DNA of 64,000 nt from Chitinophagaceae bacterium (GCA_035328345.1 DAOLIV010000004.1:5778-69777), one strand, 5' to 3'; positions 18,136 to 31,864 are shown, counted from the first letter of the stretch. Numbers and translations are program-made. The notes: generated from the letters alone by a model not told the origin.

Positions 18136-18264
18136 AAGGATCGAACATCAAAGTTAATAAGACCCGCCGAATAACTCCACAGGGGAGTTTTACATTGATT
18201 CAGACGGTTTTAGGCAATAAAAGGGTGCAGGAAAGAAATACGATACCGCACAGCTTCTCAACAG

Positions 18265-18292
18265 ATTAAGTTTTTATTAAGTCTGGGTAAAC
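18265..18292. promoter_or_regulatory. Three 11-bp-period direct repeats (ATTAAG, ATTAAG, GTAAAC) upstream of the response regulator; -7 box TAGGTTTG at 18329-18336
   Basis: Repeats start at 18265, 18276 and 18287. Confidence 0.5.
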
Positions 18293-18355
18293 AAATACAT
18301 GTAAATTTCACTACCGTTTATTTTCCTTTAGGTTTGCGCAAAATTTTTACCAGAA

Positions 18356-19033
18356 ATGGAAACAAAGCCCCGGAAAGTTCTGATAGCTGATGATGAGCCG
18401 GATATTCTTGAAATTCTTAAATATAATCTTGCAGCCGAGGGTTATGAAGTAATTACCGCAAAAGATGGTGATGAAGCTCTGGAAAAGGCACGCCGCACTC
18501 AACCTGACCTGATCGTTTTAGATATTATGATGCCCAAAAAAACAGGTGTGGAAGTTTGCCAGTTGTTGCGTTCCCAGGCAGGTTTTAAGGAAACGTTGAT
18601 TATTTTTTTAACTGCGGTAAATGATGAAGGAACGCAGATAAAAGGACTTGAAACAGGCGCTGACGATTATGTCAGCAAACCTATAAGCCCTAAGGTTTTT
18701 ATGAGCCGGGTGAATGCACTGTTCCGCAGGCTTAATAAAACAGAAGCCCGGATACTTAAAATAGAAAATATGACTATAGATCCGGAACGATTTATAGTTA
18801 TGGTTGGAGACACCGAAGTCATCCTTGCAAAAAAAGAATTTGAACTTTTATATTTATTGGCACTTAAACCAGGTCGGGTATTTCTCCGCAATGAAATTTT
18901 AAACCAGGTTTGGGGCAATGATGTAATTGTTGGTGACCGAACAATCGATGTACATATCCGGAAGATCCGTCAAAAACTCGGGGTTGACTGTATCACTACT
19001 GTAAAGGGTGTTGGTTACAAATTTGAGTTGTAA
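18356..19033 (+). CDS. phoB: OmpR/PhoB-family response regulator, probable phosphate regulon regulator
   Basis: Receiver domain (LDIMMP, GADDYVSKP) and winged helix (RTIDVHIRKIRQKL, TVKGVGYKF); the phosphate-gene context supports the symbol. Confidence 0.8.
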   Translation: METKPRKVLIADDEPDILEILKYNLAAEGYEVITAKDGDEALEKARRTQPDLIVLDIMMPKKTGVEVCQLLRSQAGFKETLIIFLTAVNDEGTQIKGLETGADDYVSKPISPKVFMSRVNALFRRLNKTEARILKIENMTIDPERFIVMVGDTEVILAKKEFELLYLLALKPGRVFLRNEILNQVWGNDVIVGDRTIDVHIRKIRQKLGVDCITTVKGVGYKFEL

Positions 19034-19075
19034 CAGATTGGTTTAATACCGGCAGCGTATCCCGTAAATTGCAGC

Positions 19076-20125
19076 ATGTTTTCCACAAAAAATATTTCAC
19101 CCAGGCAGTTGTCGGCTTTCACATCTCTGGTGCTGGCAATCCCTGTCAGTTTACTGGTTTATGCAGTGGAAAAAAGCTGGCTATGGATGATCGGATCGTT
19201 TATTGTCATTTTTGGTGGCGCCTACCTCCTAATTTCATTTGTGCTGGAGCGGTTTATTTACAGGAAAATAAAACTCATTTACAAATTCATACATCGAACT
19301 AAAGCAACCCCTAAAGAAGAGACCTATTATAAATACATTTTACCACAAAAAAGTATTGATGAAGTAAGAGAAGATGTTGAAGCATGGGCTGCAGAAAATC
19401 AAAAAGAAATTGCTGTTTTAAAAAGAAATGAACAATTCCGAAAAGAATTCCTTCAGAATCTTTCTCATGAATTTAAAACCCCTGTTTTTGCCATACAGGC
19501 ATACGTAGATACTTTATTACAGGGAGCTTTGAACAATGAAGAAGTAAACAAAAAATTCCTTGAAAAGGCAGCCAAGAATGTTATACGGCTTACCAATCTC
19601 TTAAATGATCTGGATGAAATATCAAGTCTCGAACGAGGTGAGATAATCTTATACAAACAGAATTTTGTTATACAGGATCTCATAAAAGAAGTTTATGAAG
19701 GTTTATCAGTAATAGCCGATGCTAACCAGGTTACCTGTAGCATTAAAAAGGGTTGTGAATCTCCACTAACTGTATTTGCAGATAAAGAAAAGATCAGGCA
19801 GGTGATAACGAACCTTGTGGAGAACTCAATCAAATACGGAAAGAAAAACGGGAATATTGTTGCGAGTATTTACAAAACCGATGGCAAAAGACTGCTGGTT
19901 GAAATTAGCGATGACGGTATTGGAATTGACGAAAAACATTTGCCCAGGATTTTTGAAAGATTTTACAGAACAGAAGAAGGAAGAACCATTGATGTAACAG
20001 GTAGCGGATTAGGGCTAGCAATTTGCAAACACATAATTGAAGCACACGGACAATCCATGCATGTAAGAAGCCGGGTAAATGTCGGTACCACGATTGGCTT
20101 TACGCTGGATGCCAAAAGAGATTAA
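19076..20125 (+). CDS. phoR: Sensor histidine kinase, PhoR-like
   Basis: SHEFKTP H-box, NLVENSIKY, DDGIGI, FERFYR, GSGLGLAI; two N-terminal TMs; symbol from context. Confidence 0.8.
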   Translation: MFSTKNISPRQLSAFTSLVLAIPVSLLVYAVEKSWLWMIGSFIVIFGGAYLLISFVLERFIYRKIKLIYKFIHRTKATPKEETYYKYILPQKSIDEVREDVEAWAAENQKEIAVLKRNEQFRKEFLQNLSHEFKTPVFAIQAYVDTLLQGALNNEEVNKKFLEKAAKNVIRLTNLLNDLDEISSLERGEIILYKQNFVIQDLIKEVYEGLSVIADANQVTCSIKKGCESPLTVFADKEKIRQVITNLVENSIKYGKKNGNIVASIYKTDGKRLLVEISDDGIGIDEKHLPRIFERFYRTEEGRTIDVTGSGLGLAICKHIIEAHGQSMHVRSRVNVGTTIGFTLDAKRD

Positions 20126-20128
20126 AAA

Positions 20129-21211
20129 CTAATTCCTCTTTACAGAACCAAAAGATTCTCCTGCCAGACCAGAAATAAGTTCTGCAAGCTGAAATTGATA
20201 AAACTGATTCGGGGATTTGAGTTCTCCATCCGGCGATATGCCCGGTCCCATTAAAGCAATCCAGGTTTGGGATGACCCTTTTATGAAACTTCCATGCGAC
20301 GTCCACTTCGAAAATTTTGCCCCCCTTCCATGATCTGTTGTAATTATTAAAGTGGTGTTGTTTTTATACTGTGGATCAGTTTGAATAATGTTCCATAATT
20401 CCGCAATCATCTGGTCTGCCTGGTGTGCTTTTTCGAGATAAAGATCATACCTACCATCATGGGCGGCCTCATCTGTTTCACCGAGTCCCAAATAAAATAT
20501 TTTAGGATGATTCTTTTTTATATACTCTTTCGCTGCTTCGAAAGTAAGCTGATCCAGACGTGTTGATTTTTTTTCTTCGATCAATTCATCCTGGACAAGA
20601 TTTATTGCCTGCTGTATGTCTGATGGTTCTTGTCCACCGGTAGTTTCATAACCACTGTTCATTTTGATATTGTTTCTGCTTGTATTTAAAATAAATGGAA
20701 ACAAATTCCAGGATGTAAAAGCAGCAACACTCCTCCTATACTTAGGTTTTGAGTTGAGATACTCCAGGACATTAATGTTCGGATTATTGATCTTATAATT
20801 TGATGAAAGTGCCGGATCAATTATTCCGGTGAATATTTCGCTATATCCCGGATACGACTTGACGTATCCATTGGCAACATTTACTTTATTATCATAAACC
20901 CTGTTTCCAAATATTTGTCCTCTTTTGGAAAGCACATTCCAGAAGAATGGCAAAAGCCTTTTTCTTCTTTCGTTAATCCCTGAGTCCCAATAATACAACT
21001 TCATAGTACTTGTGTCAGGAGTATATTTTATATCAGATAACAATACTGAATCTGCTCCTTTAAACACTTCCTGCCAGCGAAAACCATCAATTGTTATAAT
21101 GAAAATATTTTCTGACGGCGAAAATGAAGAGAATTCATCCCGGGTGTGTTGGATCTTTTCGGGGAATTGAATGAATGCCAATAGTACAATTGGGCTGATC
21201 AGTTTTTTCAT
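20129..21211 (-). CDS. Alkaline-phosphatase-superfamily metalloenzyme (exported)
   Basis: ITIDGFRW, KSYPGY nucleophile region, ETDEAAHDG, TTDHGRG, TSHG. ATG at 21211 preferred over the track's 21241, which overlaps the predicted promoter. Confidence 0.85.
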   Translation of the reverse strand: MKKLISPIVLLAFIQFPEKIQHTRDEFSSFSPSENIFIITIDGFRWQEVFKGADSVLLSDIKYTPDTSTMKLYYWDSGINERRKRLLPFFWNVLSKRGQIFGNRVYDNKVNVANGYVKSYPGYSEIFTGIIDPALSSNYKINNPNINVLEYLNSKPKYRRSVAAFTSWNLFPFILNTSRNNIKMNSGYETTGGQEPSDIQQAINLVQDELIEEKKSTRLDQLTFEAAKEYIKKNHPKIFYLGLGETDEAAHDGRYDLYLEKAHQADQMIAELWNIIQTDPQYKNNTTLIITTDHGRGAKFSKWTSHGSFIKGSSQTWIALMGPGISPDGELKSPNQFYQFQLAELISGLAGESFGSVKRN

Positions 21212-21254
21212 TGTTACGGGTTTTACAAAAGAAAAAACCAAAGATTTCCTTACT

Positions 21255-21369
21255 GTTAGATTGAGATTATTTTTTAATTAACCGGGCATATGTAATAATT
21301 TATTTACATAATGCTTACACTATAGTAATCCTGCTGTAACTGTTTGGTAATATGAATTGAAGATGTTTG
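21255..21369. promoter_or_regulatory. Divergent promoter region with two 11-bp-period arrays (21255/66/77 and 21292/303/314/325/336/347) and -7-like box GATGTTTG (21362-21369)
   Basis: Hexamers GTTAGA, ATTATT, ATTAAC and GTAATA, TTTACA, CTTACA, GTAATC, GTAACT, GTAATA at 11-bp spacing. Confidence 0.7.
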
Positions 21370-21382
21370 TAAAACCGAATTC

Positions 21383-22237
21383 ATGCAAAAAAGACAAGTA
21401 GATGTAGTAGTAATTTCGGATATTCACCTCGGAACCTATGGATGCCACGCAAAAGAGCTTCTTAATTATCTCCGTAGTATTTCTCCGCAGATCCTAATTC
21501 TTAATGGTGACATCATTGATGGCTGGCAATTCAGCAAAAGATACTTTCCGCCTACTCATATGCAGGTAATTAAAGAGATACTTGACCTGGTCGGTTCAGG
21601 AACAAGAACAATTTATATTACCGGTAACCACGATGAGATGCTGAGGCGGTACACAGATCTTCACCTGAATAATTTTCAACTTACCGATAAACTGGTTATG
21701 GAGATCAACGGCAAAATGGCCTGGATCTTTCACGGCGATGTATTTGATAACACCACAAAAGGCAGTGCAAAGATCATTGCCCGTTTGGGCGGTCATGGTT
21801 ATGACTGGTTAATATTAATGAACCGGTTTATTAACTGGTGTTTGAAAAGAATTGGTAGATCCAAAATGAGCTTTAGTAAGAAAATTAAGAATGGTGTAAA
21901 AAAGGCCGTCGCATGGATCGCTGATTTTGAACAAACGGCTGCAGAACTGGCGATAGAGAAAAAATATGACTATGTGATCTGTGGCCATATTCATCAGCCT
22001 CAGAAAAAATTATTTGAAACAAAAAACGGGAAAGTAATTTACATGAATAGTGGTGATTGGGTGGAAAACCTTACTGCTCTTGAATATAGTAATGGAGATT
22101 GGTCAATTTATCAATATAATGAAGCTGAATTTACCGGTGCCAGTGTTATAAAGATGACAAAGAAAGCAGCTACACCGAATGTGGTAACTGACCAGGTTGG
22201 TTTATTCATTAACTCACTTCGCCATATAAAGGAATGA
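21383..22237 (+). CDS. Calcineurin-like metallophosphoesterase of the LpxH/PlcP group (probable P-starvation phospholipase C)
   Basis: SDIHLG, NGDIIDGW, GNHD, FHGD, CGHIH, NSGDW. Confidence 0.85.
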   Translation: MQKRQVDVVVISDIHLGTYGCHAKELLNYLRSISPQILILNGDIIDGWQFSKRYFPPTHMQVIKEILDLVGSGTRTIYITGNHDEMLRRYTDLHLNNFQLTDKLVMEINGKMAWIFHGDVFDNTTKGSAKIIARLGGHGYDWLILMNRFINWCLKRIGRSKMSFSKKIKNGVKKAVAWIADFEQTAAELAIEKKYDYVICGHIHQPQKKLFETKNGKVIYMNSGDWVENLTALEYSNGDWSIYQYNEAEFTGASVIKMTKKAATPNVVTDQVGLFINSLRHIKE

Positions 22238-23244
22238 AAATTTTTTACGCAGTACAGGCTACCGGCAATGGCCATATCAGCAGGGCGATGGAACTATTAC
22301 CCCACCTTCAGAAATATGGTTCAGTTGATATTTTTTTAAGCGGCGACAACAGTAACCTGGCATTGGATGCACCGATAAAATTCAGAAGCAAGGGGATCAG
22401 TTTATTTTATAATTGTAATGGTGGTCTCGATTACTGGGAAATGCTGAAAAAATTCCAACCTCTGCGAGTCAAACAAGAAATCCGTGACCTCCCGGTTGAA
22501 AAATATGACCTTGTGCTGAATGATTTTGAATATATCACTTCAGCTGCATGTGTAAGAAAAAAAATTTCTTCGATACATTTTGGTCACCAGGCGAGCTTTC
22601 AGTCCTTACACACACCCCGGCCTTTAAAAAAGAATTCTACAGGTGAGTGGTTGCTGAAAAAATACATCAAAGCCGAACATCATGTGGGTTTACACTTTAA
22701 AAAATATGATGATTTTATATTTACAGCGATTGTAAAGGAAGAAATATTGAAAGCTGATCCCCGTGACCTTGGTTATTATACAGTATATCTCCCTTCATAT
22801 TGTGAAAAACAACTAATAGATATTTTCTCAAATTTTATCGATTTCAAATTTCAGATTTTCAGTAAAGAAACATCAGCGCTTAAAACAACCGGAAATATTA
22901 CATTTATTCCTGTCAATAAACAGTTATTTAATCAAAGCCTGATCAACTGTTCGGGCATCATTTCAGGCGGAGGGTTTGAAACTCCTGCAGAGGCCTTGCA
23001 TCTTGGCAAAAAAATCATGGTAATTCCGATAAGGGGTCAGTATGAGCAGCTGTGCAATACAGAAGCTTTATCCAGGTTAGGTATTACCTGTTTACCTTAT
23101 ATCGAAAGGAACTTCGCCGGCATTTTTAATGAATGGGTACAATCGTCAACTCCAATACAAATTGATTATTCTGATTCAATACCGGACTGTTTAAATCATA
23201 TCTTTTCAACAGTCGAGTCAGAAAACAAACTTCAAACTGTTTAA
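22234..23244 (+). CDS. GT-B glycosyltransferase (MJ1255/VC2487-like), translationally coupled to the phosphoesterase
   Basis: GNGHISRA, GGGFETPAEAL, GQYEQ; ATGA overlap at 22234-22237. Confidence 0.85.
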   Translation: MKIFYAVQATGNGHISRAMELLPHLQKYGSVDIFLSGDNSNLALDAPIKFRSKGISLFYNCNGGLDYWEMLKKFQPLRVKQEIRDLPVEKYDLVLNDFEYITSAACVRKKISSIHFGHQASFQSLHTPRPLKKNSTGEWLLKKYIKAEHHVGLHFKKYDDFIFTAIVKEEILKADPRDLGYYTVYLPSYCEKQLIDIFSNFIDFKFQIFSKETSALKTTGNITFIPVNKQLFNQSLINCSGIISGGGFETPAEALHLGKKIMVIPIRGQYEQLCNTEALSRLGITCLPYIERNFAGIFNEWVQSSTPIQIDYSDSIPDCLNHIFSTVESENKLQTV

Positions 23245-23253
23245 TTATCCCCC

Positions 23254-23293
23254 AAAAAAAACCACCCCGCTGCCTGTCCTGTGGCGGGGTGGT
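23254..23293 (-). terminator. Intrinsic terminator, minus-strand polarity
   Basis: 10-bp stem ACCACCCCGC/GCGGGGTGGT followed by 8 U on the minus strand only. Confidence 0.85.
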
Positions 23294-23368
23294 AACTGCA
23301 TGAGAAAATCTGCTCTCTGACGAAACTTACTAACGCCAGATTACTGCAACCGGGACGAAGAAAAGAAC
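23254..23368 (-). ncRNA. Putative phosphate-regulated small RNA (~115 nt)
   Basis: Minus-strand terminator with no minus-strand CDS to serve; upstream CATCTTTA -7-like box and four 11-bp repeats in the same geometry as two other promoters in the island. The 5' end is estimated. Confidence 0.6.
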
Positions 23369-23373
23369 TTAAG

Positions 23374-23430
23374 TAAAGATGCCCGCCTTTTGTTACCCTG
23401 CCGTTATCCAATAGTTAAGGAACAATTATT
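23374..23430 (-). promoter_or_regulatory. -7-like box (CATCTTTA) plus 11-bp-period repeats at 23392, 23403, 23414, 23425
   Basis: GTTACC, GTTATC, GTTAAG, ATTATT on the plus strand; 10-nt gap to the box. Confidence 0.65.
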
Positions 23431-23476
23431 AAAAGCTGCAGCAATTTTTCTATAAGGATTTCGTTAAAAACTTAAT

Positions 23477-23515
23477 ATTACTTAATTGTTAATTTTATGT
23501 AACTTTAGTGTTACC
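23477..23515. promoter_or_regulatory. Four 11-bp-period repeats (ATTACT, GTTAAT, GTAACT, GTTACC)
   Basis: Start positions 23477, 23488, 23499, 23510; they overlap the track's 23486 start, suggesting the real start is further downstream. Confidence 0.5.
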
Positions 23516-23527
23516 AATCGTACACAA

Positions 23528-24742
23528 TTGAAAATCAAGGTCTACATATTGATTTTTCTGCTACCCTTACTTTCTAAAGGCTGGTTTGCCGGAGCTCAGT
23601 CTGCAGATCAGAGGGTGAAATTTGATTTTTATGGCGATCCGGTTGAGCTTGTCATTAACCCTTCCTTACTTATCGACTTTGGGTCTACGATTTCTGAAGA
23701 AGCGATACATAACTTCTATGAAAATATTGATAACAGCCAATATGAGTCGCTCATAACTTCATTAAAAAACTGCAAGACAAAATACCAGCTTGATGATTGG
23801 CTCTATTATCAGCTTATAAGAAAAACAGTGCAGCAAATCAGTCCGAAAGAAAGTAACTACTATAGATATACACTGTACAAATGGTTCTTATTGAACAAAT
23901 CAGGTTATGACGCAACATTAAGTTTGTGCGACAATCAGTTGTTGTTATATGTTCAGAGTAACGAAGAAATATATAATATTCCTTTTCACACAAAAAATGG
24001 CAAACAATACGTTTGTCTGAATTATCATGATTACGGCGGGAATATAGATTTTACCAAAAAGAATTTTACAGAGCTTCCTTTTTATTTTTCAGAAGGCTAT
24101 AAAGCGTTTACTTATAAAATCACACAGCTTCCTGAATTTAAACCGGATAGCTATTTTGAAAAGGATATCAAATTCAATTACTATCAAACGGATTATCATT
24201 TCAAAGTTAAGCTAACCCCACAGGTGCAGACCATATTTGCCAATTACCCGGTGGTTGATTACAGCTACTACATGAATATACCTCTGAGTAAAGAAACTTA
24301 CTATTCACTCATTCCTGAACTCAAAAAAATCATGAAGGGAATGAATGAAAAAGAAGGAGTTGATTTTCTGATGCGTTTTACCAGGTATGCTTTTATATTT
24401 CAACCAGATATTAAGGTGTTTGGCGCTGAAAAGAGATTATCACCTGAAGAAACTCTCTTGTATAACAATAGTGATTGTGAGGACAGAGCCGCTTTGTTCT
24501 TTTACCTTGTAAAGGAAATATATAACCTTCCCATGCTGGTCCTAACTTATCCCAAACATGTCACAATTGCTGTAAATTTTCAAAAACCAATAGGAAATAC
24601 GATCACCTATAACGGAAAGAAATATTCAGTTTGCGAACCAACACCGCAAAAAAGAGATCTGAAATTAGGTGAGTTGCTTCCCCAGCTGCGCAAAACGCCT
24701 TATGAAATTGCGTATGAATATAACCCACTAAAAAATCAATAA
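23528..24742 (+). CDS. Exported protein with C-terminal transglutaminase-like / LapG-like cysteine motif
   Basis: Signal peptide; SDCEDRAALF followed by PKHVTIAV. TTG start at 23528 is my estimate (track: 23486). Confidence 0.7.
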   Translation: MKIKVYILIFLLPLLSKGWFAGAQSADQRVKFDFYGDPVELVINPSLLIDFGSTISEEAIHNFYENIDNSQYESLITSLKNCKTKYQLDDWLYYQLIRKTVQQISPKESNYYRYTLYKWFLLNKSGYDATLSLCDNQLLLYVQSNEEIYNIPFHTKNGKQYVCLNYHDYGGNIDFTKKNFTELPFYFSEGYKAFTYKITQLPEFKPDSYFEKDIKFNYYQTDYHFKVKLTPQVQTIFANYPVVDYSYYMNIPLSKETYYSLIPELKKIMKGMNEKEGVDFLMRFTRYAFIFQPDIKVFGAEKRLSPEETLLYNNSDCEDRAALFFYLVKEIYNLPMLVLTYPKHVTIAVNFQKPIGNTITYNGKKYSVCEPTPQKRDLKLGELLPQLRKTPYEIAYEYNPLKNQ

Positions 24743-24754
24743 CCTACGGCTTTA

Positions 24755-25282
24755 TCAGAAGTTATCTGTTTTAATACGCTGTCCATTTGAATCGTATTCT
24801 TCCTTTCTAATCAACCTGCCATTTTCATCATAGTACTCCCATACTCCGCTATATAATCCATCGTGATACTCCCCTTTGCTCTTTACCTTACCATTTAAAT
24901 AATAATTTACTGCATCTCCCTCAAACTTTCCATCCTCCTTTAAATGATTAATAAATACTGCCTGCCCATTCGGGTAATATTGGGAAAAGAAAGTCCGGAT
25001 ATCATTTTTTGTAATAATTACCTGTCTCACTTTTTCTGAAGAATCACGCATCACCTGGCACAGTGTTGAATCCTTCTTATTAATATAATATGAAGCTGTC
25101 ACAAATTCTCTTCTGAAGTAAGGCTTGGTATGCGTACTGTCGCTATTCCTGATAATCTTTTCAAGCCAGCTATTATTTAATTTATTATTTACAAATGGTT
25201 CATCCGGGTTTCCGGATTTTTTGCATCCAACCAAGAAAATAAATAATACAACCAGTAAGAACTTTAAAAATTTCATCTTCAA
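24755..25282 (-). CDS. Lipoprotein with MORN-variant (YwqK-like) repeats
   Basis: Lipobox LVGC; repeats YYPNGQ, YYLNGKVKSKGEY..G...GVWEYYDENG. Confidence 0.8.
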   Translation of the reverse strand: MKMKFLKFLLVVLFIFLVGCKKSGNPDEPFVNNKLNNSWLEKIIRNSDSTHTKPYFRREFVTASYYINKKDSTLCQVMRDSSEKVRQVIITKNDIRTFFSQYYPNGQAVFINHLKEDGKFEGDAVNYYLNGKVKSKGEYHDGLYSGVWEYYDENGRLIRKEEYDSNGQRIKTDNF

Positions 25283-25295
25283 ATATTATAATAAA

Positions 25296-25322
25296 ACAGC
25301 TTCCTCTTTCTGAGGAAGCTGT
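25296..25322 (-). terminator. Intrinsic terminator after the TBDR-lipoprotein operon
   Basis: 11-bp stem ACAGCTTCCTC/GAGGAAGCTGT with a U-rich tail on the minus strand. Confidence 0.8.
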
Positions 25323-25352
25323 CAAAGTTATTTAGTTACAACCTACTATTAC

Positions 25353-26804
25353 TTAAAACTTCCACTTAGTCCATCCCTTCCACCAGCTTGCCAACTCACC
25401 GGCAGGGGCTACTGCTCCGCGGAAAGTAATTGTTTTATCAAAAAAAGTATCTCCGGTGAACTTAGAGTCAGAAAAACCTGCTCCGGTAAGAATTTTCTGG
25501 TTTCCACTGCTTCCTGCAAACGGGGTGAAATCCGGTGTATCATAATTATATGGCTGGATCAATTTTGTATCAGAAGTATTTGTCAATATATCATTTCCGT
25601 AATACGGGTTTGTAAACCAGGAAGTCAAAGTAGCATCATTCATAATTGTTGCTCCAGCTGTTCCAGCGAATTTTAAATTTGTTGTATTTCCAGCCAATGT
25701 GATATTTCTTAAACGGAGTGTGCTGTCTTCGATATTCAATGCTGTAGAAGTCCCGGTAGTTGCATCAATATAGATACCTAAGGGCCATCCCATAATAATT
25801 GAATTAAAGATAGAGATACCTGAGTTTCTACGGATTTGAGCACCGCCCAAAAACAAACTGTTTCCGACATTACTTAAAGTTGCTCTTGGTCCGATAGCTG
25901 TAATATTGCTATAGATAGCCCTTGTTTTGGGAGAGGCGGTAGTTCCCTGTGAGTTATTATCACTTTCAAATGCTTCAGATTTGGAGATATCCGCAATTAG
26001 TGAATCACGAAGAATAATACCGAACTGAAATTTACCACTGTATCCGTTATCGGTATCAAAGTCATCATCCTGCGTTTTAAAGGCTATAAAGTATTTCACA
26101 TTTACTGAACCTCCGAAACATTCTATGGCGTCATCTTTTGCATAAACGATCTGTACATGTTCAACAGTGGTTCCGCTTCCAACTGCAGCCATTGTAAGAC
26201 TATTAATCTCCTTGTCAGGCTGATATGCGTATCCTGCAAATTCAATACGAACAAACTTTAATGAACCAGAGTTATCTGCATCATCAGGAGTAGCGCCACC
26301 GCCAGCAATACCATCACCTTGTGCATTATCAATACCACCCTCTACCTGTATAGTACCCTGAACACCATTAAAGCTTGAATTTACACTTGCCTTTCCGCAA
26401 ATAACGATACCACCCCAGTCACCAGATTGTGGATTAGGTGCAGCTGATGTAAATACAATTGGTTCAGTAGCTGTTCCGTTAGCAACAAGTTTTGATCCAC
26501 GGGTAATGATCAATGCGGCTACATCGCTTCCACTAAAAGAACCTTTCACTGTAGTACCTGCCTCAACTGTCATAGTATGATTTCCTACCATGTATACTAA
26601 TCCTTTCAGGATATAAGTATTTTGTTTTCTTAAGATCGTATCGGCATTGATACGGCCTTCCAAAGTAATGGTGGTACCGGTAGTACCTCCGCCTCCGCCA
26701 CCATTTACGATTATTACTTCTTTTTCGCCATCAGTTTCAATTTTGCGGCAGCCAGTGATAGCGACTGCAGCTATGGCGGTTAAGCAGAAAATGTACTTTT
26801 TCAT
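25353..26804 (-). CDS. Lipoprotein with predicted parallel beta-helix repeats, partner of the upstream TBDR
   Basis: Lipobox ITGC, Gly tract, GDWGGIVICG, DDAIECFGG, DDDFDTDNGY, FESDN; not RagB/SusD-like. Confidence 0.8.
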   Translation of the reverse strand: MKKYIFCLTAIAAVAITGCRKIETDGEKEVIIVNGGGGGGTTGTTITLEGRINADTILRKQNTYILKGLVYMVGNHTMTVEAGTTVKGSFSGSDVAALIITRGSKLVANGTATEPIVFTSAAPNPQSGDWGGIVICGKASVNSSFNGVQGTIQVEGGIDNAQGDGIAGGGATPDDADNSGSLKFVRIEFAGYAYQPDKEINSLTMAAVGSGTTVEHVQIVYAKDDAIECFGGSVNVKYFIAFKTQDDDFDTDNGYSGKFQFGIILRDSLIADISKSEAFESDNNSQGTTASPKTRAIYSNITAIGPRATLSNVGNSLFLGGAQIRRNSGISIFNSIIMGWPLGIYIDATTGTSTALNIEDSTLRLRNITLAGNTTNLKFAGTAGATIMNDATLTSWFTNPYYGNDILTNTSDTKLIQPYNYDTPDFTPFAGSSGNQKILTGAGFSDSKFTGDTFFDKTITFRGAVAPAGELASWWKGWTKWKF

Positions 26805-26829
26805 TTGGTTATTTTTTAAAAGATTTAAT

Positions 26830-29613
26830 TTATATAATTGAATAGTTAAATGTTAAGCTGAAAGTAGTTCCAAACTCTTTAGTGAAACGATACAGATCGC
26901 TTCCTTTCTGAAAACTCTCTTTACCTTGATTGTTCTGATAGAAATATCCTTTGCTGTTCAGGATATTTGAAATATTCAAGCGGATCTCACCTTTTTTCTG
27001 AAATAATTTCTTGGCCAATTGCAGATCTAATAAAGCCCTACCTTGCTCATAAATATCAGGATAGCCATCATCCGCATTTCCAACATAAGCAAGCCTGTAA
27101 CCTATCTGGTTAAATAATAGTGTAGCATTAAACCCTTTTTCTTCCTGGTCATATAACAAACCAACATTTATCACATACGGAGATTGACCTTGCAGTGGTC
27201 TGTCGATTTGCAGTGCAGGATCTGATACTTTACTATTTATATAAGATACATTACCCTGAACAGTGAAATTTTTTAGAGCATCGCTGAAATCAAGTCTTTT
27301 TCTAATTTCAAGTTCTGCTCCATACGCCTCTGCTTTCTGCGGATTTTGGAATGAAAAAGTACTGGCACCACCGCTACTTCCATTAAATAATTGTTCGATA
27401 GGTTTATTAAAATGTTTATAAAAAATACCTACTGAAAATGTTTCGCCTGCACGGGGATATAGTTCATATCTCAGATCCGCATTAGTAATCTTTGTTCTTT
27501 TAAGATTTGGATTCCCTTGTACCGATGCATTCAAATCAAAATCAAAAATATTCAGGAAAGAAAGCTCTCTCAACTCCGGACGAATGACGGTTTGAGAGCC
27601 TGAAAGACGAAGATTGGTTTTGTTGTTCAATTTAAAAGTAGCATTCATACCGGGCAAAAAATCGGTTACTTCTGTATGAGAGTGGCGGGGATCATACGCT
27701 TTTACACTTCCCACCAACTGATCATAGTCTTCTACCCGCACACCCCAAACTACTCTTATATCTTTTCCAATACGGTTGTCAAATTGAACATAACCTGCAT
27801 TCAATATGGTGTTTGCCAGATACCTGAACGTATTTCCTTTGATCGCATCAAATGCAAACATACTCCCGGTCCCGTCGCCAAAATTTGCAGGATCAAATAC
27901 CTGGTCAGCTGGTAACTGCTTTAGGGCATCATTATCCAGAGGCAGGTAAATGGCGAAAAGTTTTGCATCATACAACCTGTCTTTTACCTGGAACATATAA
28001 CCTCCCTTAACTGACTGATTTTTTCCAAAATCATATGTCAGGTCGCCCCCTGCAGTATATATATAGTCACTTAAACTTTGATAAATACGGCTACCGCTTT
28101 GTTGGGAAAGAGTATTTGATATAATCAGTCGATATGGATCAGCTGCACTTTCTCTTGAATATTGTATCCTGCGCTGATCAGGAATGTACCCGTCCAGGAT
28201 ATTGAAAGAACCATACCATTTACCTTTAAGTTTTGTGGTTAGCTTATGCTCTCCTGTAGCCTGAACTGTAAAGAAGGTATTTTGTTTAAAATTAAATTCC
28301 GAGCCCATAATAAATTTATCAATACGGCTATTGTCAACACCATTTCGTTGTGTTACACGATTGGTAGTATTTACGTTTATTAAGGACTTAAATGAAACTT
28401 TATTGTTGGAATTAATCTGATAGCTTAAACTACCTAGTGCCCCTGCACTGATTTCCTGCTGATATTGATCATCATTATAATCGAAATTCACTGATACATT
28501 CTGGTTCAGCGGGTCAACACTATTAAAGCGGTTTAAAGTTTTGAAATAATTATTTGTTTTATTATAAATGATACCAAAAGTGCCTCCCAATTTTCTATTG
28601 AATAAGTTTGTTACAAAGCCACCATTTGCCTGGAAAGAAGCATTTAAAGAACCCGATCCTTTTTCAGCAGTCCAACGGTTATCAAATTGTTTTCCGATAG
28701 CAGTTTTTTCTGCAGGGCTTAAAATATCAAATTCTGACTTGGTTGTATACGAAGAAGGTAAGGCCCTGGCACCATCATCAATTCCCAGCCAATCCAGATC
28801 TCCTCTTTTTTCCTTATAAAAATCTTTCCCTGTTGCAGCAGTATTAAATCCTGTTCCGATTTGAATGTTCAAGAAACCTTTTGTAGGTATATCTTTTGTA
28901 TTTACCTGTATCAAACCCCCTGCCCATTCTCCGGGATATTCAGGAACAAAAGCTTTATTGATAATTACATTATCAATCATTGCCGAAGGGATCAGGTCGA
29001 ACGAGAATGTCTTTCTGTCTGGTTCTGTACTTGTAAGCAAAATGCCATTGAGCATGGCCTGGTTATACCTGTCGGCAAGACCTCTTACAATAATAAATTT
29101 ACCTTCCTGCAAACTTGCACCCGGTGTACGTTTGATCACCTCACCGGTATTTTTATCCGGAGAACGACGAATACTTTCAGCAGAAATTACAGATGCTACT
29201 GTGTTTGTATTTTTTTGAAAAGCAATAATTGAATTAACGGACTCTAGTCTTGCTGATGAACGACGGGCAGATACAACAACATTTTCTCCTGTAGCTGCTT
29301 TAACCTGCAACACAATATTTAACTCATTTAACTGCCCGCTAAAAACTTCAGCATCAGTAATCACCTTTTTTTCATATCCTACTGCTGAGAACTCGAGTTC
29401 GTATTTTTTGCCCGGAGCCAGGTTTAATATAAATCTGCCTTCAACATCTGTTATTGCTCCGCCGGCGGCGCCGACAATATTCACTGAAACCCCAACCAGG
29501 GGTTCATTTTTTTCATTTAAAACCTTACCTGTCAATTTAATAGTCTGTGCCTGCGAAAAAGAAACCGAGGCAAGGAAGAATATCGAAAGAAGCAACCCAA
29601 TCCTTAAAAACAT
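26830..29613 (-). CDS. TonB-dependent receptor
   Basis: N-terminal carboxypeptidase-regulatory-like domain, IIVRGLADRYN plug, barrel motifs, C-terminal FSLTFNYSII. Confidence 0.93.
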   Translation of the reverse strand: MFLRIGLLLSIFFLASVSFSQAQTIKLTGKVLNEKNEPLVGVSVNIVGAAGGAITDVEGRFILNLAPGKKYELEFSAVGYEKKVITDAEVFSGQLNELNIVLQVKAATGENVVVSARRSSARLESVNSIIAFQKNTNTVASVISAESIRRSPDKNTGEVIKRTPGASLQEGKFIIVRGLADRYNQAMLNGILLTSTEPDRKTFSFDLIPSAMIDNVIINKAFVPEYPGEWAGGLIQVNTKDIPTKGFLNIQIGTGFNTAATGKDFYKEKRGDLDWLGIDDGARALPSSYTTKSEFDILSPAEKTAIGKQFDNRWTAEKGSGSLNASFQANGGFVTNLFNRKLGGTFGIIYNKTNNYFKTLNRFNSVDPLNQNVSVNFDYNDDQYQQEISAGALGSLSYQINSNNKVSFKSLINVNTTNRVTQRNGVDNSRIDKFIMGSEFNFKQNTFFTVQATGEHKLTTKLKGKWYGSFNILDGYIPDQRRIQYSRESAADPYRLIISNTLSQQSGSRIYQSLSDYIYTAGGDLTYDFGKNQSVKGGYMFQVKDRLYDAKLFAIYLPLDNDALKQLPADQVFDPANFGDGTGSMFAFDAIKGNTFRYLANTILNAGYVQFDNRIGKDIRVVWGVRVEDYDQLVGSVKAYDPRHSHTEVTDFLPGMNATFKLNNKTNLRLSGSQTVIRPELRELSFLNIFDFDLNASVQGNPNLKRTKITNADLRYELYPRAGETFSVGIFYKHFNKPIEQLFNGSSGGASTFSFQNPQKAEAYGAELEIRKRLDFSDALKNFTVQGNVSYINSKVSDPALQIDRPLQGQSPYVINVGLLYDQEEKGFNATLLFNQIGYRLAYVGNADDGYPDIYEQGRALLDLQLAKKLFQKKGEIRLNISNILNSKGYFYQNNQGKESFQKGSDLYRFTKEFGTTFSLTFNYSII

Positions 29614-29630
29614 AAGTGGAATATTTGCGG

Positions 29631-29709
29631 CAAAGGTGTGCTTGACACATTAACGGCATGTTACAGCCGTGTTAAGCAATTGTAACTTGAATGTTACCTC
29701 AATATTAAC
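29631..29709 (-). promoter_or_regulatory. -7-like box (CACCTTTG) plus six exact 11-bp-period repeats (Pho-box-like array)
   Basis: ATTAAC 29649, GTTACA 29660, GTTAAG 29671, GTAACT 29682, GTTACC 29693, ATTAAC 29704. Confidence 0.8.
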
Positions 29710-29714
29710 TCAGC

Positions 29715-31046
29715 TTAGAAGCGGAATTGTAAGCGGCATGTGAAGACATCATCCTTCAAATCGGACGAATATCCACTTAGACTTGTTGATTCATTTTTGA
29801 CCATTGCATAGTATAAGATAATTTTAGTCTGGTCATTGAAATGATAAACATACCCGGTTCCCAGGGTATTAAATCTTATATCGGCGGCTGTAAGATTTGT
29901 CCCCGTCTTTCCTATCTCATTTCTGCTTACTTTGATATTAGGGTCATACCAGTCATATTTCAGCAAAAACTGGTGCTTTTTGTTGAACAGGTTTTGAATA
30001 AAATATAAAAATGCCCCACTATAATGTCTCACATATGTTGGCAATGGTATTCCATTACTATTTGGCAAATTCCCTGGATTAGTAGTAGAATTAGCAGTGC
30101 CCGGCTGGGTTCCAAACCAATATTCAGCCCGAAATTCGGTCTCACCCCAGCCGTAAAATATTTTTGCCTGAATATCTCCTCCATAATAATGTCTCGGCGC
30201 AGACCTACCAAGATTCCTTTCTGACGAATCAACCTCAAATATTTTATCACCATTTGAAGAAGTAGCACTATGAAAAACGTACTTAGTAGCATTTTTCCAA
30301 CCTCCTCTTAAAAAAGAAAGTCCTGCACCAATTTCAAATCTGTTAAATGTATATGGCTTAATAATTAATCTGCCTATAAAATCTTTGTGGCTGTCAAAAT
30401 CTGTTACGCCAGAGGGGCCTTGTCCATTAAATAATCCTGCGTCAAGTTTAAAATGATTCATTTTTTGTTTCCGACCTTGCGGTTCAAAAGTTAGCATAAC
30501 ACCTAAATCTCTTTCTCCCGGCATTAAAATCTGCGACATCCTTCCTCTTTCAGGAGTTTCACGATGTGATGAACCAAGATTAACTTCAAATCCAAAAGGA
30601 CGGGCAAAGAAACCTGTAGTCAAAGAGAGATTGTTTTTAGAAGTTTCAAAAAGCCTGATGAACATATCTCTCACAATTACACCTCTCTCAGTCGCATCAA
30701 TCTGGAAAGTAAATAGGGCTTTGGGAGAATTTTGTTTAGTAGTCAAAAGATAATCCACTTTTATCCTGGCTCTTCGTAGCATAAACCTGCTTCGTGAATA
30801 TTGAGAAAAATTTCCGCCTTCGTATGATTGGGTACCATCAGATTGAGCAACTTGAAATTGTGGCTGCATGTAACCACTAATCCTCAGATTTTCAAACCTT
30901 TTTATTGTTGGCCTGACAGTATCTTTTATAAACAATGAACTATCGATGCCAGTCAGATATCGCTGGCCAAAAGTCTGAAGAAAGCTGATAATGACTGTAA
31001 TAAAGGCTAAAATGAGGTGTTTACCGAAAGAACTATGATTTATCAT
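29715..31046 (-). CDS. Outer membrane porin, phosphate-selective porin O/P-like
   Basis: ISGYMQPQFQ, FMLRRARIK, PFGFE..SS..RETPER, C-terminal RLQFRF. ATG at 31046 preferred (track: 31067). Confidence 0.75.
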   Translation of the reverse strand: MINHSSFGKHLILAFITVIISFLQTFGQRYLTGIDSSLFIKDTVRPTIKRFENLRISGYMQPQFQVAQSDGTQSYEGGNFSQYSRSRFMLRRARIKVDYLLTTKQNSPKALFTFQIDATERGVIVRDMFIRLFETSKNNLSLTTGFFARPFGFEVNLGSSHRETPERGRMSQILMPGERDLGVMLTFEPQGRKQKMNHFKLDAGLFNGQGPSGVTDFDSHKDFIGRLIIKPYTFNRFEIGAGLSFLRGGWKNATKYVFHSATSSNGDKIFEVDSSERNLGRSAPRHYYGGDIQAKIFYGWGETEFRAEYWFGTQPGTANSTTNPGNLPNSNGIPLPTYVRHYSGAFLYFIQNLFNKKHQFLLKYDWYDPNIKVSRNEIGKTGTNLTAADIRFNTLGTGYVYHFNDQTKIILYYAMVKNESTSLSGYSSDLKDDVFTCRLQFRF

Positions 31047-31079
31047 AACTCCCTTTCTTCTGTGCAATATAAATTCTTT

Positions 31080-31129
31080 GTTACAGAATAGTTACCCTAA
31101 TTTTATTTCTATATTAATTTATTATTAAT
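31080..31129. promoter_or_regulatory. 11-bp-period repeats between the porin and DUF47 genes
   Basis: GTTACA 31080, GTTACC 31091, ATTAAT 31113, ATTAAT 31124; the 31102 unit is degenerate. Confidence 0.6.
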
Positions 31130-31193
31130 TATACCTTCCTCTTAAATCCCCTTTAATCAACCCGGTATTTTCGCAAACGCTAAATAAACAATC

Positions 31194-31841
31194 ATGGGAC
31201 TTAATTCTTTTCTAAAGATTTTCATGCCTAAGAATAAAATCTTTTATGAACTCTTTGAAAGTGTGGCTGGCAATGTTGCTAAAATGGGATCTCTATTGCG
31301 GGACATAGTTGCAGAACCAGATTTTGATAAACGAGCTGCATTGATCGTTCAGCTTGAAGATCTGGAACATGCAAATGATGAATTAACCCATAGTCTTTTT
31401 ACCGAACTAGGCAGGAATTTTATCACTCCATTTGACAGAGAAGACATTCATTATTTGGCTACTTCATTAGATGATATTGCAGATTATATTTATGCAGCAG
31501 GCAAAAAAATAAACTTTTACCGGGTTAATCCAAATGATACCGGTATGCAAAAGTTTTCAGAATTAATTGAGCAAAGTGCAGAACAGGTAAGAGTTGCGGT
31601 TGGAGAATTAAGGGATATGAAAAATATGCGGAACATTACTGAAGCATTGGTAAAGATCAACAGCATTGAAAACCAGGCTGACGACACATTTGATTTCAGC
31701 ATTGAACGGTTATTCAATACAGAACCAGATGCAAAAGAGGTTATCAAGAAGAGAGATATTTACCAGGTAATGGAGATTGTTACTGATAAATGTGAAGATG
31801 CCAGCAATGTTATTGAGTCCATCATAATTAAATATGCATAA
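31194..31841 (+). CDS. DUF47 family phosphate transport regulator (PhoU-like)
   Basis: LEHANDE, FITPFDREDI, IENQAD, TDKCED; adjacent to PiT. Confidence 0.92.
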   Translation: MGLNSFLKIFMPKNKIFYELFESVAGNVAKMGSLLRDIVAEPDFDKRAALIVQLEDLEHANDELTHSLFTELGRNFITPFDREDIHYLATSLDDIADYIYAAGKKINFYRVNPNDTGMQKFSELIEQSAEQVRVAVGELRDMKNMRNITEALVKINSIENQADDTFDFSIERLFNTEPDAKEVIKKRDIYQVMEIVTDKCEDASNVIESIIIKYA

Positions 31842-31864
31842 GTTCTTTTGACCACAGACTGTTT

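What the first reader, a model, noticed from the sequence alone, without database searches (positions are those of the whole stretch)
18265..31129. A readable Pho-box grammar: 11-bp-period arrays with fixed geometry to degenerate -7 boxes
Arrays of a (G/A)T(T/A)A(A/C)-type hexamer at 11-bp period occur at 18265 (x3), 21255 (x3), 21292 (x6), 23392 (x4), 23477 (x4), 29649 (x6) and 31080 (4 of 5). In three promoters the last repeat is 10 nt from a -7 box whose first base departs from consensus: GGTAAT-N10-GATGTTTG (phosphoesterase), GGTAAC-N10-CATCTTTA (sRNA), GTTAAT-N10-CACCTTTG (TBDR). The repeats replace the -33 element, as expected for activation by an OmpR/PhoB-family dimer. The unit differs from the E. 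coli CTGTCAT Pho box, so this is a candidate lineage-specific Pho box that could define the regulon genome-wide.
Basis: partly seen in the sequence, partly recalled or inferred. Interest (0 to 1): 0.7.

Follow-up and report, generated by a model that had tools for sequence, protein, structure and literature searches.

The report
Bacteroidota Pho-box promoter arrays
Rows of TTAACA-like words, spaced one DNA turn apart and locked in phase to the promoter core, sit in front of the phosphate-scavenging genes of this Chitinophagaceae bacterium; they are very probably docking sites of its PhoB-type phosphate-starvation regulator, a familiar kind of switch that is barely described for this phylum.

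Summary
All seven arrays are at the stated places. A regex for four units at an 11-bp period finds 7 hits in the 3.85-Mb genome, and all 7 lie in this 13-kb island. A matrix trained only on relatives' promoters ranks two island arrays first and second genome-wide.

The arrays are conserved cis-elements:
- 73 orthologous PlcP promoters share four units in fixed register, then N10 and GAnnTTTG.
- 12 of 12 neighbouring receptor (TBDR) orthologues carry 5-6 units.
- About 130 control upstream regions carry no array of four or more units.
- The same array-to-box spacing recurs before TBDR homologues in other orders and classes of Bacteroidota, with every measured distance to TTTG equal to 9 mod 11.

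The island regulator is the genome's best PhoB match, though below NCBIfam cut-offs. The homologous Flavobacterium johnsoniae phoBR cluster is induced by phosphate depletion.

- The unit, (C/G)TTAACA, is not lineage-specific. It matches the Bacillus PhoP, cyanobacterial SphR and Riemerella PhoP (DAP-seq) motifs.
- Three arrays (regulator, unk404, PhoU_div) are in reverse orientation or distal.
- The non-T first base of the -7 box is local, not universal.
- By this grammar the regulon is confined to the island, and the genome has no Pst transporter.

This is a new member of a known kind, of moderate interest.

The parts
18264..18292 (-). Distal box upstream of the regulator gene. Units GTTTACC, CTTAATA and CTTAATC are in reverse orientation, about 45 nt upstream of the canonical -7 box TAGGTTTG (18329-18336).
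   Evidence: the pair CTTAATn-N4-CTTAATA is conserved at the same distance in 9 of 9 RR orthologues with at least 70% identity. Only 2 of 1000 shuffles reach the observed score.
18356..19033 (+). OmpR/PhoB-family response regulator; candidate reader of the arrays.
   Evidence: Pfam Response_reg + Trans_reg_C. Its best NCBIfam hits are PhoB models: TIGR02154 at 225.8 bits (cut-off 296) and NF053854 at 217 bits (cut-off 270). It is the best PhoB match in the genome by about 55 bits.
19076..20125 (+). PhoR/PnpS-like histidine kinase.
   Evidence: HisKA + HATPase_c. Best NCBIfam hits are PnpS and PhoR, both below cut-off.
20129..21211 (-). Alkaline-phosphatase-superfamily enzyme (AP370). The likely start is the ATG at 21211.
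   Evidence: Pfam Metalloenzyme/Phosphodiest. Start read from the sequence.
21254..21282 (-). Weak 3-unit array (GTTAATT / AAATAAT / TCTAACA) before the AP370 gene, followed by AATCTTTG at N8.
   Evidence: Forward arrays scoring at least 17 are present in 6 of 13 orthologous promoters.
21291..21352 (+). Six-unit array of the PlcP-GT promoter.
   Evidence: 73 orthologous promoters share the register TTCACA/TTAAt/TTAACA/gGTAAcA-N10-GAnnTTTG.
21362..21369 (+). -7 box GATGTTTG of the PlcP-GT promoter.
   Evidence: In this genome the first base of nAnnTTTG boxes is T in 63% and G in 10%.
21383..23244 (+). PlcP-like metallophosphoesterase plus glycosyltransferase (lipid-remodelling pair).
   Evidence: Pfam Metallophos and Glyco_trans_1_3. 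PlcP and a glycosyltransferase are Pi-induced in F. johnsoniae (PMC8115612).
23254..23367 (-). Candidate small RNA, from the inferred start after CATCTTTA to an intrinsic terminator with a U-run.
   Evidence: Sequence conserved in L001, L013 and L037, with compensatory changes in the terminator stem. No Rfam match.
23374..23430 (-). Four-unit array (23430-23392), then N10, then box CATCTTTA (23381-23374); the small-RNA promoter.
   Evidence: It ranks 5th genome-wide with the independent matrix. Arrays with no downstream ORF sit at the same place after GT in relatives.
23476..23515 (-). Four-unit array (GGTAACA/AGTTACA/ATTAACA/AGTAATA) abutting the start of unk404 (TTG 23528) in reverse orientation.
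   Evidence: Second-best array in the genome. The reverse orientation next to unk404 orthologues is conserved in the family (3 of 3) and in other orders (L120, L126).
25353..29613 (-). TonB-dependent receptor (26830-29613) plus lipoprotein unk483 (25353-26804).
   Evidence: Pfam PF14905/PF13715/PF07715, the same domain set as the Pi-induced Fjoh_0545 (PMC8115612). The pair is conserved across the phylum.
29631..29709 (-). Six-unit array (29709-29649), then N10, then box CACCTTTG (29638-29631); the TBDR promoter.
   Evidence: 12 of 12 orthologues carry arrays scoring at least 17, and most have the CACCTTTG box.
29715..31046 (-). unk450, a putative outer-membrane beta-barrel (signal peptide, C-terminal ...LQFRF). 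It occupies the position held by an OprP-type porin in relative L001.
   Evidence: The L001 protein matches Porin_O_P at 4e-11; unk450 itself has no Pfam hit.
31079..31129 (-). Five-unit array in the unk450 | PhoU_div divergent region. It reads best toward unk450. The two palindromic ATTAAT units lie about 36 nt upstream of the PhoU_div box TATTTTCG (31166-31173).
   Evidence: Relatives have reverse-oriented arrays here in 69% of cases, and the motif ATTAATAATTnnTTAATA is conserved.
31194..33070 (+). PhoU_div (DUF47) plus a PHO4/PiT-type phosphate transporter.
   Evidence: Pfam. No PstB above cut-off anywhere in the 99.5%-complete genome.

Best explanation
The arrays are Pho boxes, that is, operator sites for the island's PhoB/PhoP-type response regulator (18356-19033).

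Proposed mechanism:
- Under phosphate limitation the adjacent PhoR-like kinase phosphorylates the regulator.
- The regulator then binds head-to-tail, one protomer per (C/G)TTAACA-like heptamer, one heptamer per 11-bp turn, as 2-3 dimers per array.
- At the PlcP-GT, TBDR-lipoprotein and small-RNA promoters the last unit ends exactly 10 nt before the -7 box. The array therefore occupies the place of the missing -33 element and recruits sigma-A RNA polymerase to a -7 box that is weakened at its first base.
- Reverse-oriented or distal boxes at the regulator's own promoter, at unk404 and at PhoU_div-PHO4 are also conserved. They probably mediate autoregulation or repression.

Shown here: the repeats, their period, their phase-lock to the -7 box, their conservation, their restriction to phosphate genes, and their linkage to the RR-HK pair.

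Inferred: which protein binds, the phosphate signal, the contact with sigma, and the sign of regulation.
For: - Statistics: period-11 arrays of at least 4 units occur only in the island. With an independent matrix, island arrays rank 1, 2, 5, 8 and 15 in the genome. They beat dinucleotide shuffles.
- Conservation: 73 PlcP promoters give a four-unit 11-bp profile, with a Fourier peak at 11.
- Forward arrays scoring at least 17: TBDR 12/12, PlcP 67%, AP370 46%.
- No array of four or more units (score at least 15) at any of six control gene sets: RR 0/11, HK 0/10, GT 0/78, PHO4 0/13, unk754 0/10, epimerase 0/8.
- Enrichment: 94 arrays in 1.28 Mb of related loci, against 4 in the 3.84 Mb outside the island.
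- Geometry: the distance from the last heptamer to TTTG is 20, or 9, 31 or 42; all 21 values equal 9 mod 11. The N10 spacing is kept in other orders and classes.
- Gene content: phosphatase, PlcP+GT, PhoU_div+PHO4, and an OprP-type porin in relatives.
- Regulator: best PhoB match in the genome. RR-HK is linked to TBDR-lipoprotein across the phylum.
- Literature: the F. johnsoniae phoBR cluster (TBDT, FII lipoprotein, GT; PlcP elsewhere) is induced 5-10 log2 by Pi depletion (PMC8115612). Riemerella PhoP binds a TTTAACA motif by DAP-seq and EMSA, including at a TBDR promoter (PMC9603813).
Against: - No binding or expression data exist for this organism.
- The regulator scores below both PhoB equivalog cut-offs.
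- Five other OmpR-family regulators are encoded in the genome.
- Three of the seven arrays do not have the activating geometry.
- The same-genus TBDR homologues (L090-L092) show no array in the 260 nt upstream.
- Sites of only two units cannot be told from background, so the regulon size is a lower bound.
Confidence: 0.8

Rival explanations
1. The arrays are real operators, but they are read by a different OmpR-family regulator or respond to a signal other than phosphate, for example an ArcA-like redox signal or envelope stress.
For: Six OmpR-family regulators are encoded. The island RR is below the PhoB cut-offs. The Riemerella 'PhoP' motif resembles ArcA's, and that paper links it to aerotolerance and virulence rather than to phosphate (PMC9603813).
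Against: The target genes are phosphate-specific. The RR-HK pair travels with the TBDR-lipoprotein pair across the phylum. The homologous F. johnsoniae cluster is Pi-responsive (PMC8115612). The other regulators score at least 55 bits lower against the PhoB models.
Confidence: 0.12
2. The arrays are phased bendable or curved DNA, or sites for a nucleoid protein, and not sequence-specific operators.
For: 11-bp periodic patterns are common in bacterial genomes (PMC1242344, listed). The regions are AT-rich.
Against: What is conserved is specific bases (T, A, A, C at fixed columns, 1.2-1.7 bits each), while the spacers drift. The arrays are strand-oriented. They are phase-locked to the -7 box. They are absent from control promoters.
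Confidence: 0.04
3. The arrays are chance periodicity in AT-rich spacers.
For: Single units carry only about 5.7 bits. Two- and three-unit matches are as frequent at other periods.
Against: Arrays of four or more units are unique to the island. Shuffles do not reach them. They are conserved in dozens of genomes down to phylum level.
Confidence: 0.01

Closest known systems
Bacillus subtilis PhoP core binding site (Liu & Hulett 1998; Eder et al. 1999; recalled from my own knowledge, the first listed as ref. 35 of PMC2275107)
   Same: The unit TT(A/T/C)ACA is essentially identical to the TTAACA/TTTACA/TTCACA units seen here. Both are direct repeats with about an 11-bp period. Both typically use four or more units (two dimers) at activated promoters that lack a good upstream element.
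   Different: The promoter context differs: sigma-A -35/-10 in Bacillus, -33/-7 (TAnnTTTG) here. Arrays here are longer, up to six units, and strictly locked at N10 to the -7 box. No binding data exist here.
Cyanobacterial Pho box of SphR (PyTTAAPyPy(T/A), 8 bp + 3-nt linker; PMC4195498)
   Same: The TTAA core, the 11-bp period, tandem arrays of 3-4 units, and control of a phosphate-stress small RNA (PsiR1) alongside pst and phoA genes.
   Different: In Synechocystis the arrays lie 61-182 nt upstream of the TSS. Here the activating arrays abut the promoter core.
Riemerella anatipestifer PhoP motif from DAP-seq and EMSA (PMC9603813)
   Same: Same phylum. [quoted passage not shown] Binding was shown at a TonB-dependent receptor promoter and upstream of phoPR.
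   Different: That paper does not describe an 11-bp array grammar, a fixed spacing to the -7 box or a phosphate regulon. It reports 583 peaks and a virulence and aerotolerance focus. Orthology of that PhoP to the island regulator was not tested here.
Escherichia coli Pho box (CTGTCAT-N4-CTGTCAT, 10 bp upstream of the -10 element; established knowledge; PMC9306846)
   Same: Two or more 11-bp direct-repeat units replace the upstream promoter element, 10 bp from the downstream element, and are read by PhoB contacting sigma.
   Different: The unit sequence is unrelated. The E. coli pattern is not enriched in the window: 5 matches against 7.4 expected, none in the island's promoters.
Flavobacterium johnsoniae phoBR gene cluster (Fjoh_0541-0549; PMC8115612)
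   Same: The same gene set: PhoB, PhoR, a TBDT with PF07715/PF13715/PF14905, a hypothetical lipoprotein, a glycosyltransferase and an OprP-type porin. It is strongly Pi-depletion-induced.
   Different: That work reports expression only. It contains no promoter or Pho-box analysis (0 occurrences of 'promoter' or 'Pho box'). F. johnsoniae also has Pst; this genome does not.

Membership tests
Pho box (operator of PhoB/PhoP/SphR-type OmpR-family phosphate regulators) | Tandem direct repeats, one unit per helical turn (10-11 bp) | tested here: met
   Period 11 only. The Fourier peak of the conservation profile is at 11.
Pho box (operator of PhoB/PhoP/SphR-type OmpR-family phosphate regulators) | Array at a fixed short distance from the downstream promoter element, in place of the upstream element | tested here: met
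   Unit-N10-nAnnTTT(G/A) at the PlcP, TBDR and small-RNA promoters. There is no conserved -33 TTTG. All 21 distances are in one register. This feature is not met at the RR, unk404 and PhoU_div promoters.
Pho box (operator of PhoB/PhoP/SphR-type OmpR-family phosphate regulators) | Located at phosphate-acquisition or phosphate-sparing genes | tested here: met
   Phosphatase, PlcP+GT, PhoU_div+PHO4 and a TBDR operon; an OprP-type porin in relatives. Control genes have no array of four or more units.
Pho box (operator of PhoB/PhoP/SphR-type OmpR-family phosphate regulators) | A cognate PhoB-PhoR pair is encoded | tested here: inconclusive
   The island RR and HK are the best PhoB and PhoR/PnpS hits but fall below the equivalog cut-offs (225.8 against 296 bits; 201 against 334 bits). 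Synteny with the target operon is conserved across the phylum.
Pho box (operator of PhoB/PhoP/SphR-type OmpR-family phosphate regulators) | Bound by the phosphorylated regulator | not testable with these tools
   Needs EMSA, footprinting or DAP-seq. The only in-phylum data are for Riemerella PhoP (PMC9603813).
Pho box (operator of PhoB/PhoP/SphR-type OmpR-family phosphate regulators) | Transcription induced by phosphate limitation | not testable with these tools
The homologous F. johnsoniae cluster is induced (PMC8115612).
E. coli-type Pho box | Unit consensus CTGTCAT-N4-CTGTCA(C/T) | tested here: not met
   5 matches with up to 3 mismatches in the window against 7.4 expected; none in an island promoter.
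Bacillus/cyanobacterial-type Pho box (TTAAC core) | Unit consensus TT(A/T/C)ACA or PyTTAAPyPy | tested here: met
   The matrices from the window and from relatives both give (C/G)(T/G)T(A/c)A(C/t)A. The Bacillus consensus is quoted from memory; the cyanobacterial one from PMC4195498.
Bacteroidota sigma-A promoter (-33 TTTG / -7 TAnnTTTG) | A TAnnTTTG box 10-40 nt upstream of start codons | tested here: met
   nAnnTTTG is enriched about 3-fold at -40 to -12 genome-wide, with first base T in 63%. The three island promoters with N10 geometry have G or C at that base.

The most novel reading that the evidence does not exclude
A phylum-wide Bacteroidota Pho-box grammar that has not been written down. 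It would have these features:
- Two to six (C/G)TTAACA heptamers in 11-bp register.
- Phase-locking to the phylum-specific -7 element, with the last unit followed by N10.
- Orientation and distance encode the output: forward and proximal means activation; reverse or distal means autoregulation or repression.
- In this organism it governs a minimal, self-contained, Pst-less Pho regulon on one 13-kb island that includes a Pho-controlled small RNA.

The shared TTAAC code of Bacteroidota, Firmicutes and Cyanobacteria would then be the ancestral PhoB specificity, and the proteobacterial CTGTCAT the derived one.
Probability: 0.45. Interest if true: 0.6.

Novelty: new member of a known kind. Interest (0 to 1): 0.45.

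Why it matters
Bacteroidota are major recyclers of organic phosphorus in soil, water and the gut. Their Pho regulons have been defined only by expression studies. No promoter rule for them turned up in the papers I could search.

A validated box plus spacing rule (heptamers at 11 bp, N10 to the -7 box) would let Pho regulons be read from genomes and MAGs across the phylum. It would also show how an OmpR-family activator docks onto the unusual -33/-7 promoter of this phylum.

In this genome the rule points to an unusually compact regulon without a Pst transporter. It also marks several proteins of unknown function (unk404, unk450, unk483) and a small RNA as probably phosphate-controlled.

Tried and rejected
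- An 11-column matrix trained on six units overfitted and picked up coding periodicity at periods 9, 12 and 15. I replaced it with a 7-column core.
- Two- and three-unit scans do not separate period 11 from other periods. Only arrays of four or more units, or the composite with the -7 box, are informative.
- The E. coli Pho-box pattern is not enriched.
- Rfam finds nothing in the window, so the small RNA belongs to no curated family.
- Off-island array candidates were examined. Those at C4:156779, C5:94003, C1:185134, C18:68052, C21:1486 and C10:12436 lie inside long ORFs and are taken as chance.
- C2:9826 lies upstream of a 240-aa outer-membrane protein. It has two good units and is left open.
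- The composite scan (3 units + N10 + nAnnTTTG) finds only the TBDR and PlcP promoters, at 18.6 and 17.4; the next best is 11.3.
- The k=4 test wrongly suggested that the regulator's array was not conserved. Reading the sequences showed a conserved two-unit reverse box.
- RNAalifold on four small-RNA homologues gave no convincing fold beyond the terminator.
- Literature searches for a described Bacteroidota Pho box found only the Riemerella DAP-seq motif.


Full report
**Setting.** The window is C4:5778-69777 of a 3.85-Mb, 39% GC, 99.5%-complete genome. It belongs to Chitinophagaceae: PlcP orthologues of 70-80% identity come from Chitinophagaceae MAGs, Foetidibacter, Deminuibacter, Sediminibacterium and Filimonas.

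The stretch 18-33 kb encodes the following:
- An OmpR/PhoB-type regulator (18356-19033) and a PhoR/PnpS-like kinase (19076-20125).
- An alkaline-phosphatase-superfamily enzyme (20129-21211, minus strand).
- A PlcP-like metallophosphoesterase overlapping a glycosyltransferase (21383-23244).
- A secreted protein of unknown function, unk404 (23528-24742).
- A TonB-dependent receptor (TBDR) with a lipoprotein, unk483 (25353-29613, minus strand).
- A probable outer-membrane barrel, unk450 (29715-31046, minus strand).
- PhoU_div plus a PHO4-type phosphate transporter (31194-33070).

No PstB reaches the family cut-off anywhere in the genome; the best hit is 146 bits against 343. The cell therefore seems to lack the Pst transporter.

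**The observation.** Printed in 11-nt register, the repeats are plain.
- The PlcP promoter has six units (TGTAATA, ATTTACA, GCTTACA, AGTAATC, TGTAACT, GGTAATA), then 10 nt, then GATGTTTG.
- The TBDR promoter has six (GTTAAT, GGTAAC, AGTTAC, CTTAAC, TGTAAC, GTTAAT), then 10 nt, then CACCTTTG.
- A minus-strand promoter with no downstream ORF has four, ending GGTAAC, then 10 nt, then CATCTTTA.

The unit consensus is (C/G)(T/G)TAACA, at about 5.7 bits per unit.

**Is it more than chance?**
- A loose regex for four units at period 11 hits seven times in the genome, and all seven hits are in the island. Periods 6-23 give 0-3 hits each.
- A matrix trained on the TBDR array alone recovers the other island arrays as the next best in the genome.
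- A matrix trained only on relatives' PlcP promoters, which contains no window sequence, ranks the TBDR array (28.8) and the array at 23515 (26.0) first and second. The best score at any other period is 20.7.
- With that independent matrix, five of the top 15 arrays lie in the island, which is 0.3% of the genome.
- All five island intergenic regions exceed 1000 dinucleotide-preserving shuffles: 0/1000 reach the observed value for four regions, 2/1000 for the regulator region.
- Off-island hits of similar score lie inside long ORFs.

**Conservation within the family.**
- I anchored 73 distinct orthologous PlcP promoters on their TTTG.
- They show four information peaks in strict 11-bp register: TTCACA at -51, TTAAt at -40, TTAACA at -29 and gGTAAcA at -18.
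- These peaks are followed by 10 poorly conserved bases and then GAaTTTTG. The spacers have drifted, and there is no conserved -33 TTTG.
- Forward arrays scoring at least 17 occur upstream of 12/12 TBDR orthologues, 67% of PlcP orthologues and 46% of phosphatase orthologues.
- No array of four or more units (score at least 15) occurs upstream of 0/11 RR, 0/10 HK, 0/78 GT, 0/13 PHO4, 0/10 unk754 and 0/8 epimerase genes.
- The 1.28 Mb of related loci hold 94 such arrays. The 3.84 Mb outside the island in this genome hold 4.

**Conservation beyond the family.**
- TBDR homologues occur in 174 of 301 sampled Bacteroidota genomes.
- Arrays of CTTAACA/GTTAACA units precede them in other families, orders and classes. 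The TBDR-lipoprotein pair is often next to an RR-HK pair 46-53% identical to the island's.
- In 21 promoters where a TTTG follows the array, the distance from the last called heptamer to TTTG is 20 (11 cases), 9, 31 or 42. All 21 values equal 9 mod 11.
- The phase-lock to the -7 element therefore holds at phylum level.

- *The unit is not lineage-specific.*
  - It is essentially the B. subtilis PhoP box TT(A/T/C)ACA (my own knowledge; Liu & Hulett 1998 is listed as ref. 35 in PMC2275107).
  - It is close to the cyanobacterial SphR box PyTTAAPyPy(T/A) (PMC4195498).
  - It matches the DAP-seq motif of Riemerella anatipestifer PhoP, 'most conserved nucleotides TTTAACA', which was validated by EMSA at a TBDR promoter (PMC9603813).
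- *The -7 box departure is local.* This genome's promoters use nAnnTTTG with T first in 63% of cases and G or C in about 10% each. The G or C is therefore a real departure, and it is conserved in family orthologues. Distant lineages use canonical TAnnTTTG behind the same arrays.
- *Three arrays lack the activating geometry.*
  - The regulator's box is a pair CTTAATn-N4-CTTAATA in reverse orientation, about 45 nt upstream of a canonical TAGGTTTG. It is conserved in 9/9 close orthologues.
  - The array at 23476-23515 abuts the unk404 start in reverse orientation. This is conserved in the family and in other orders.
  - The array at 31079-31129 reads toward unk450. In relative L001 the gene at that position is an OprP-type porin. 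The two palindromic ATTAAT units lie a conserved distance of about 36 nt from the PhoU_div box TAtTTTCG.
  - The sign of regulation at these three promoters is unknown.
- *The regulon is confined to the island.* The full grammar (three units, N10, nAnnTTTG) occurs only at the TBDR and PlcP promoters, at 18.6 and 17.4; the next best site scores 11.3. By this test the regulon is the island itself. Two-unit sites cannot be detected, so this is a lower bound.

**Who binds, and in response to what?** This step is inferred.
- The island regulator is the best PhoB match in the genome by about 55 bits, but it is below both PhoB equivalog cut-offs. Five other OmpR-family regulators exist.
- The closest solved relatives are MtrA, RegX3, RpaA and BaeR.
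- The link to phosphate rests on three things:
  - the gene content of the island;
  - the conserved synteny of the RR-HK pair with the target operon;
  - F. johnsoniae, where the homologous phoBR cluster is induced 5-10 log2 by Pi depletion. That cluster holds a TBDT with the same three Pfam domains, the FII lipoprotein, a glycosyltransferase and OprP; PlcP is induced elsewhere in that genome (PMC8115612).
- The F. johnsoniae paper contains no promoter analysis. The B. fragilis PhoB paper gives no box sequence.
- Public RNA-seq could not be consulted.

**The small RNA.**
- The sequence downstream of CATCTTTA is conserved in L001, L013 and L037: GGTTGCA..TAATC.GGCGTTAGTAAG and GCAGATTTTCTCATGCAG.
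- It ends in a hairpin plus U-run whose stem shows compensatory changes.
- Arrays with no downstream ORF sit at the same place in further relatives.
- Together these support a phosphate-controlled transcript of about 110 nt. Rfam has no match.

**Verdict.** This is a Pho box of the TTAAC type, adapted to the Bacteroidota -33/-7 promoter. It works like the B. subtilis and E. coli systems. As a sequence motif it has been seen once in the phylum (Riemerella), but no description of it as a promoter grammar turned up in the papers I could search.

Earlier notes of this scan describe the same grammar in several other Bacteroidota genomes. They agree with this reading but are not independent evidence.

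It is a new member of a known kind, of moderate interest.

Noticed in passing
window 23254-23367 (-): Candidate small RNA of about 110 nt under an array promoter. Its sequence and terminator are conserved in L001, L013 and L037, with compensatory changes in the terminator stem. There is no Rfam match.
   Followed up: partly
whole genome (G000): No PstB above the family cut-off in a 99.5%-complete genome (best 146 bits against 343). Phosphate uptake seems to rest on the PhoU_div + PHO4 pair at window 31194-33070.
   Followed up: partly
window 21366-21376 (+) and about 21219-21233 (-): The motif TTTGTAAAACC directly follows the -7 position in both the PlcP and the divergent phosphatase promoters. 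In 73 PlcP orthologues 'TTTGnAAAAC' is the most conserved stretch of the promoter, up to 2.2 bits per column. Its function is unknown; it may be a start-site or leader element, or a second operator.
   Followed up: no
genome C28:19195-20070 (-) and C28:20079-20125 (+): A 295-aa protein with only a Trans_reg_C winged-helix domain and no receiver domain lies next to four TTTAC(A/G) units at an 11-bp period in its divergent spacer.
   Followed up: no
window 29715-31046 (-); L001 minus strand: unk450 has a signal peptide and a C-terminal ...LQFRF typical of outer-membrane barrels, but no Pfam hit. The gene at the same position in L001 is a Porin_O_P family member (4e-11). The two are only marginally similar (BLASTP E 0.019).
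   Followed up: partly
L090, L091, L092 (same-genus genomes G139, G255, G059): The closest TBDR homologues (59-66% identity) have no intergenic spacer with an array. A divergent gene starts about 30 nt upstream, so the promoter arrangement differs even within the genus.
   Followed up: no
genome C2:9826-9865 (+): An intergenic CTTAACA-N4-AATAACA pair plus weaker units lies upstream of a 240-aa outer-membrane-like protein. It is the only off-island, non-coding candidate with a score near 15.
   Followed up: partly
L123 (G225, another class of the phylum) 5744, 8752, 9856: Three consecutive promoters each carry four CTTAACA-type units, then N10, then CATCTTTG or TATGTTTG. This is a multi-promoter Pho cluster like the one in the window.
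   Followed up: partly
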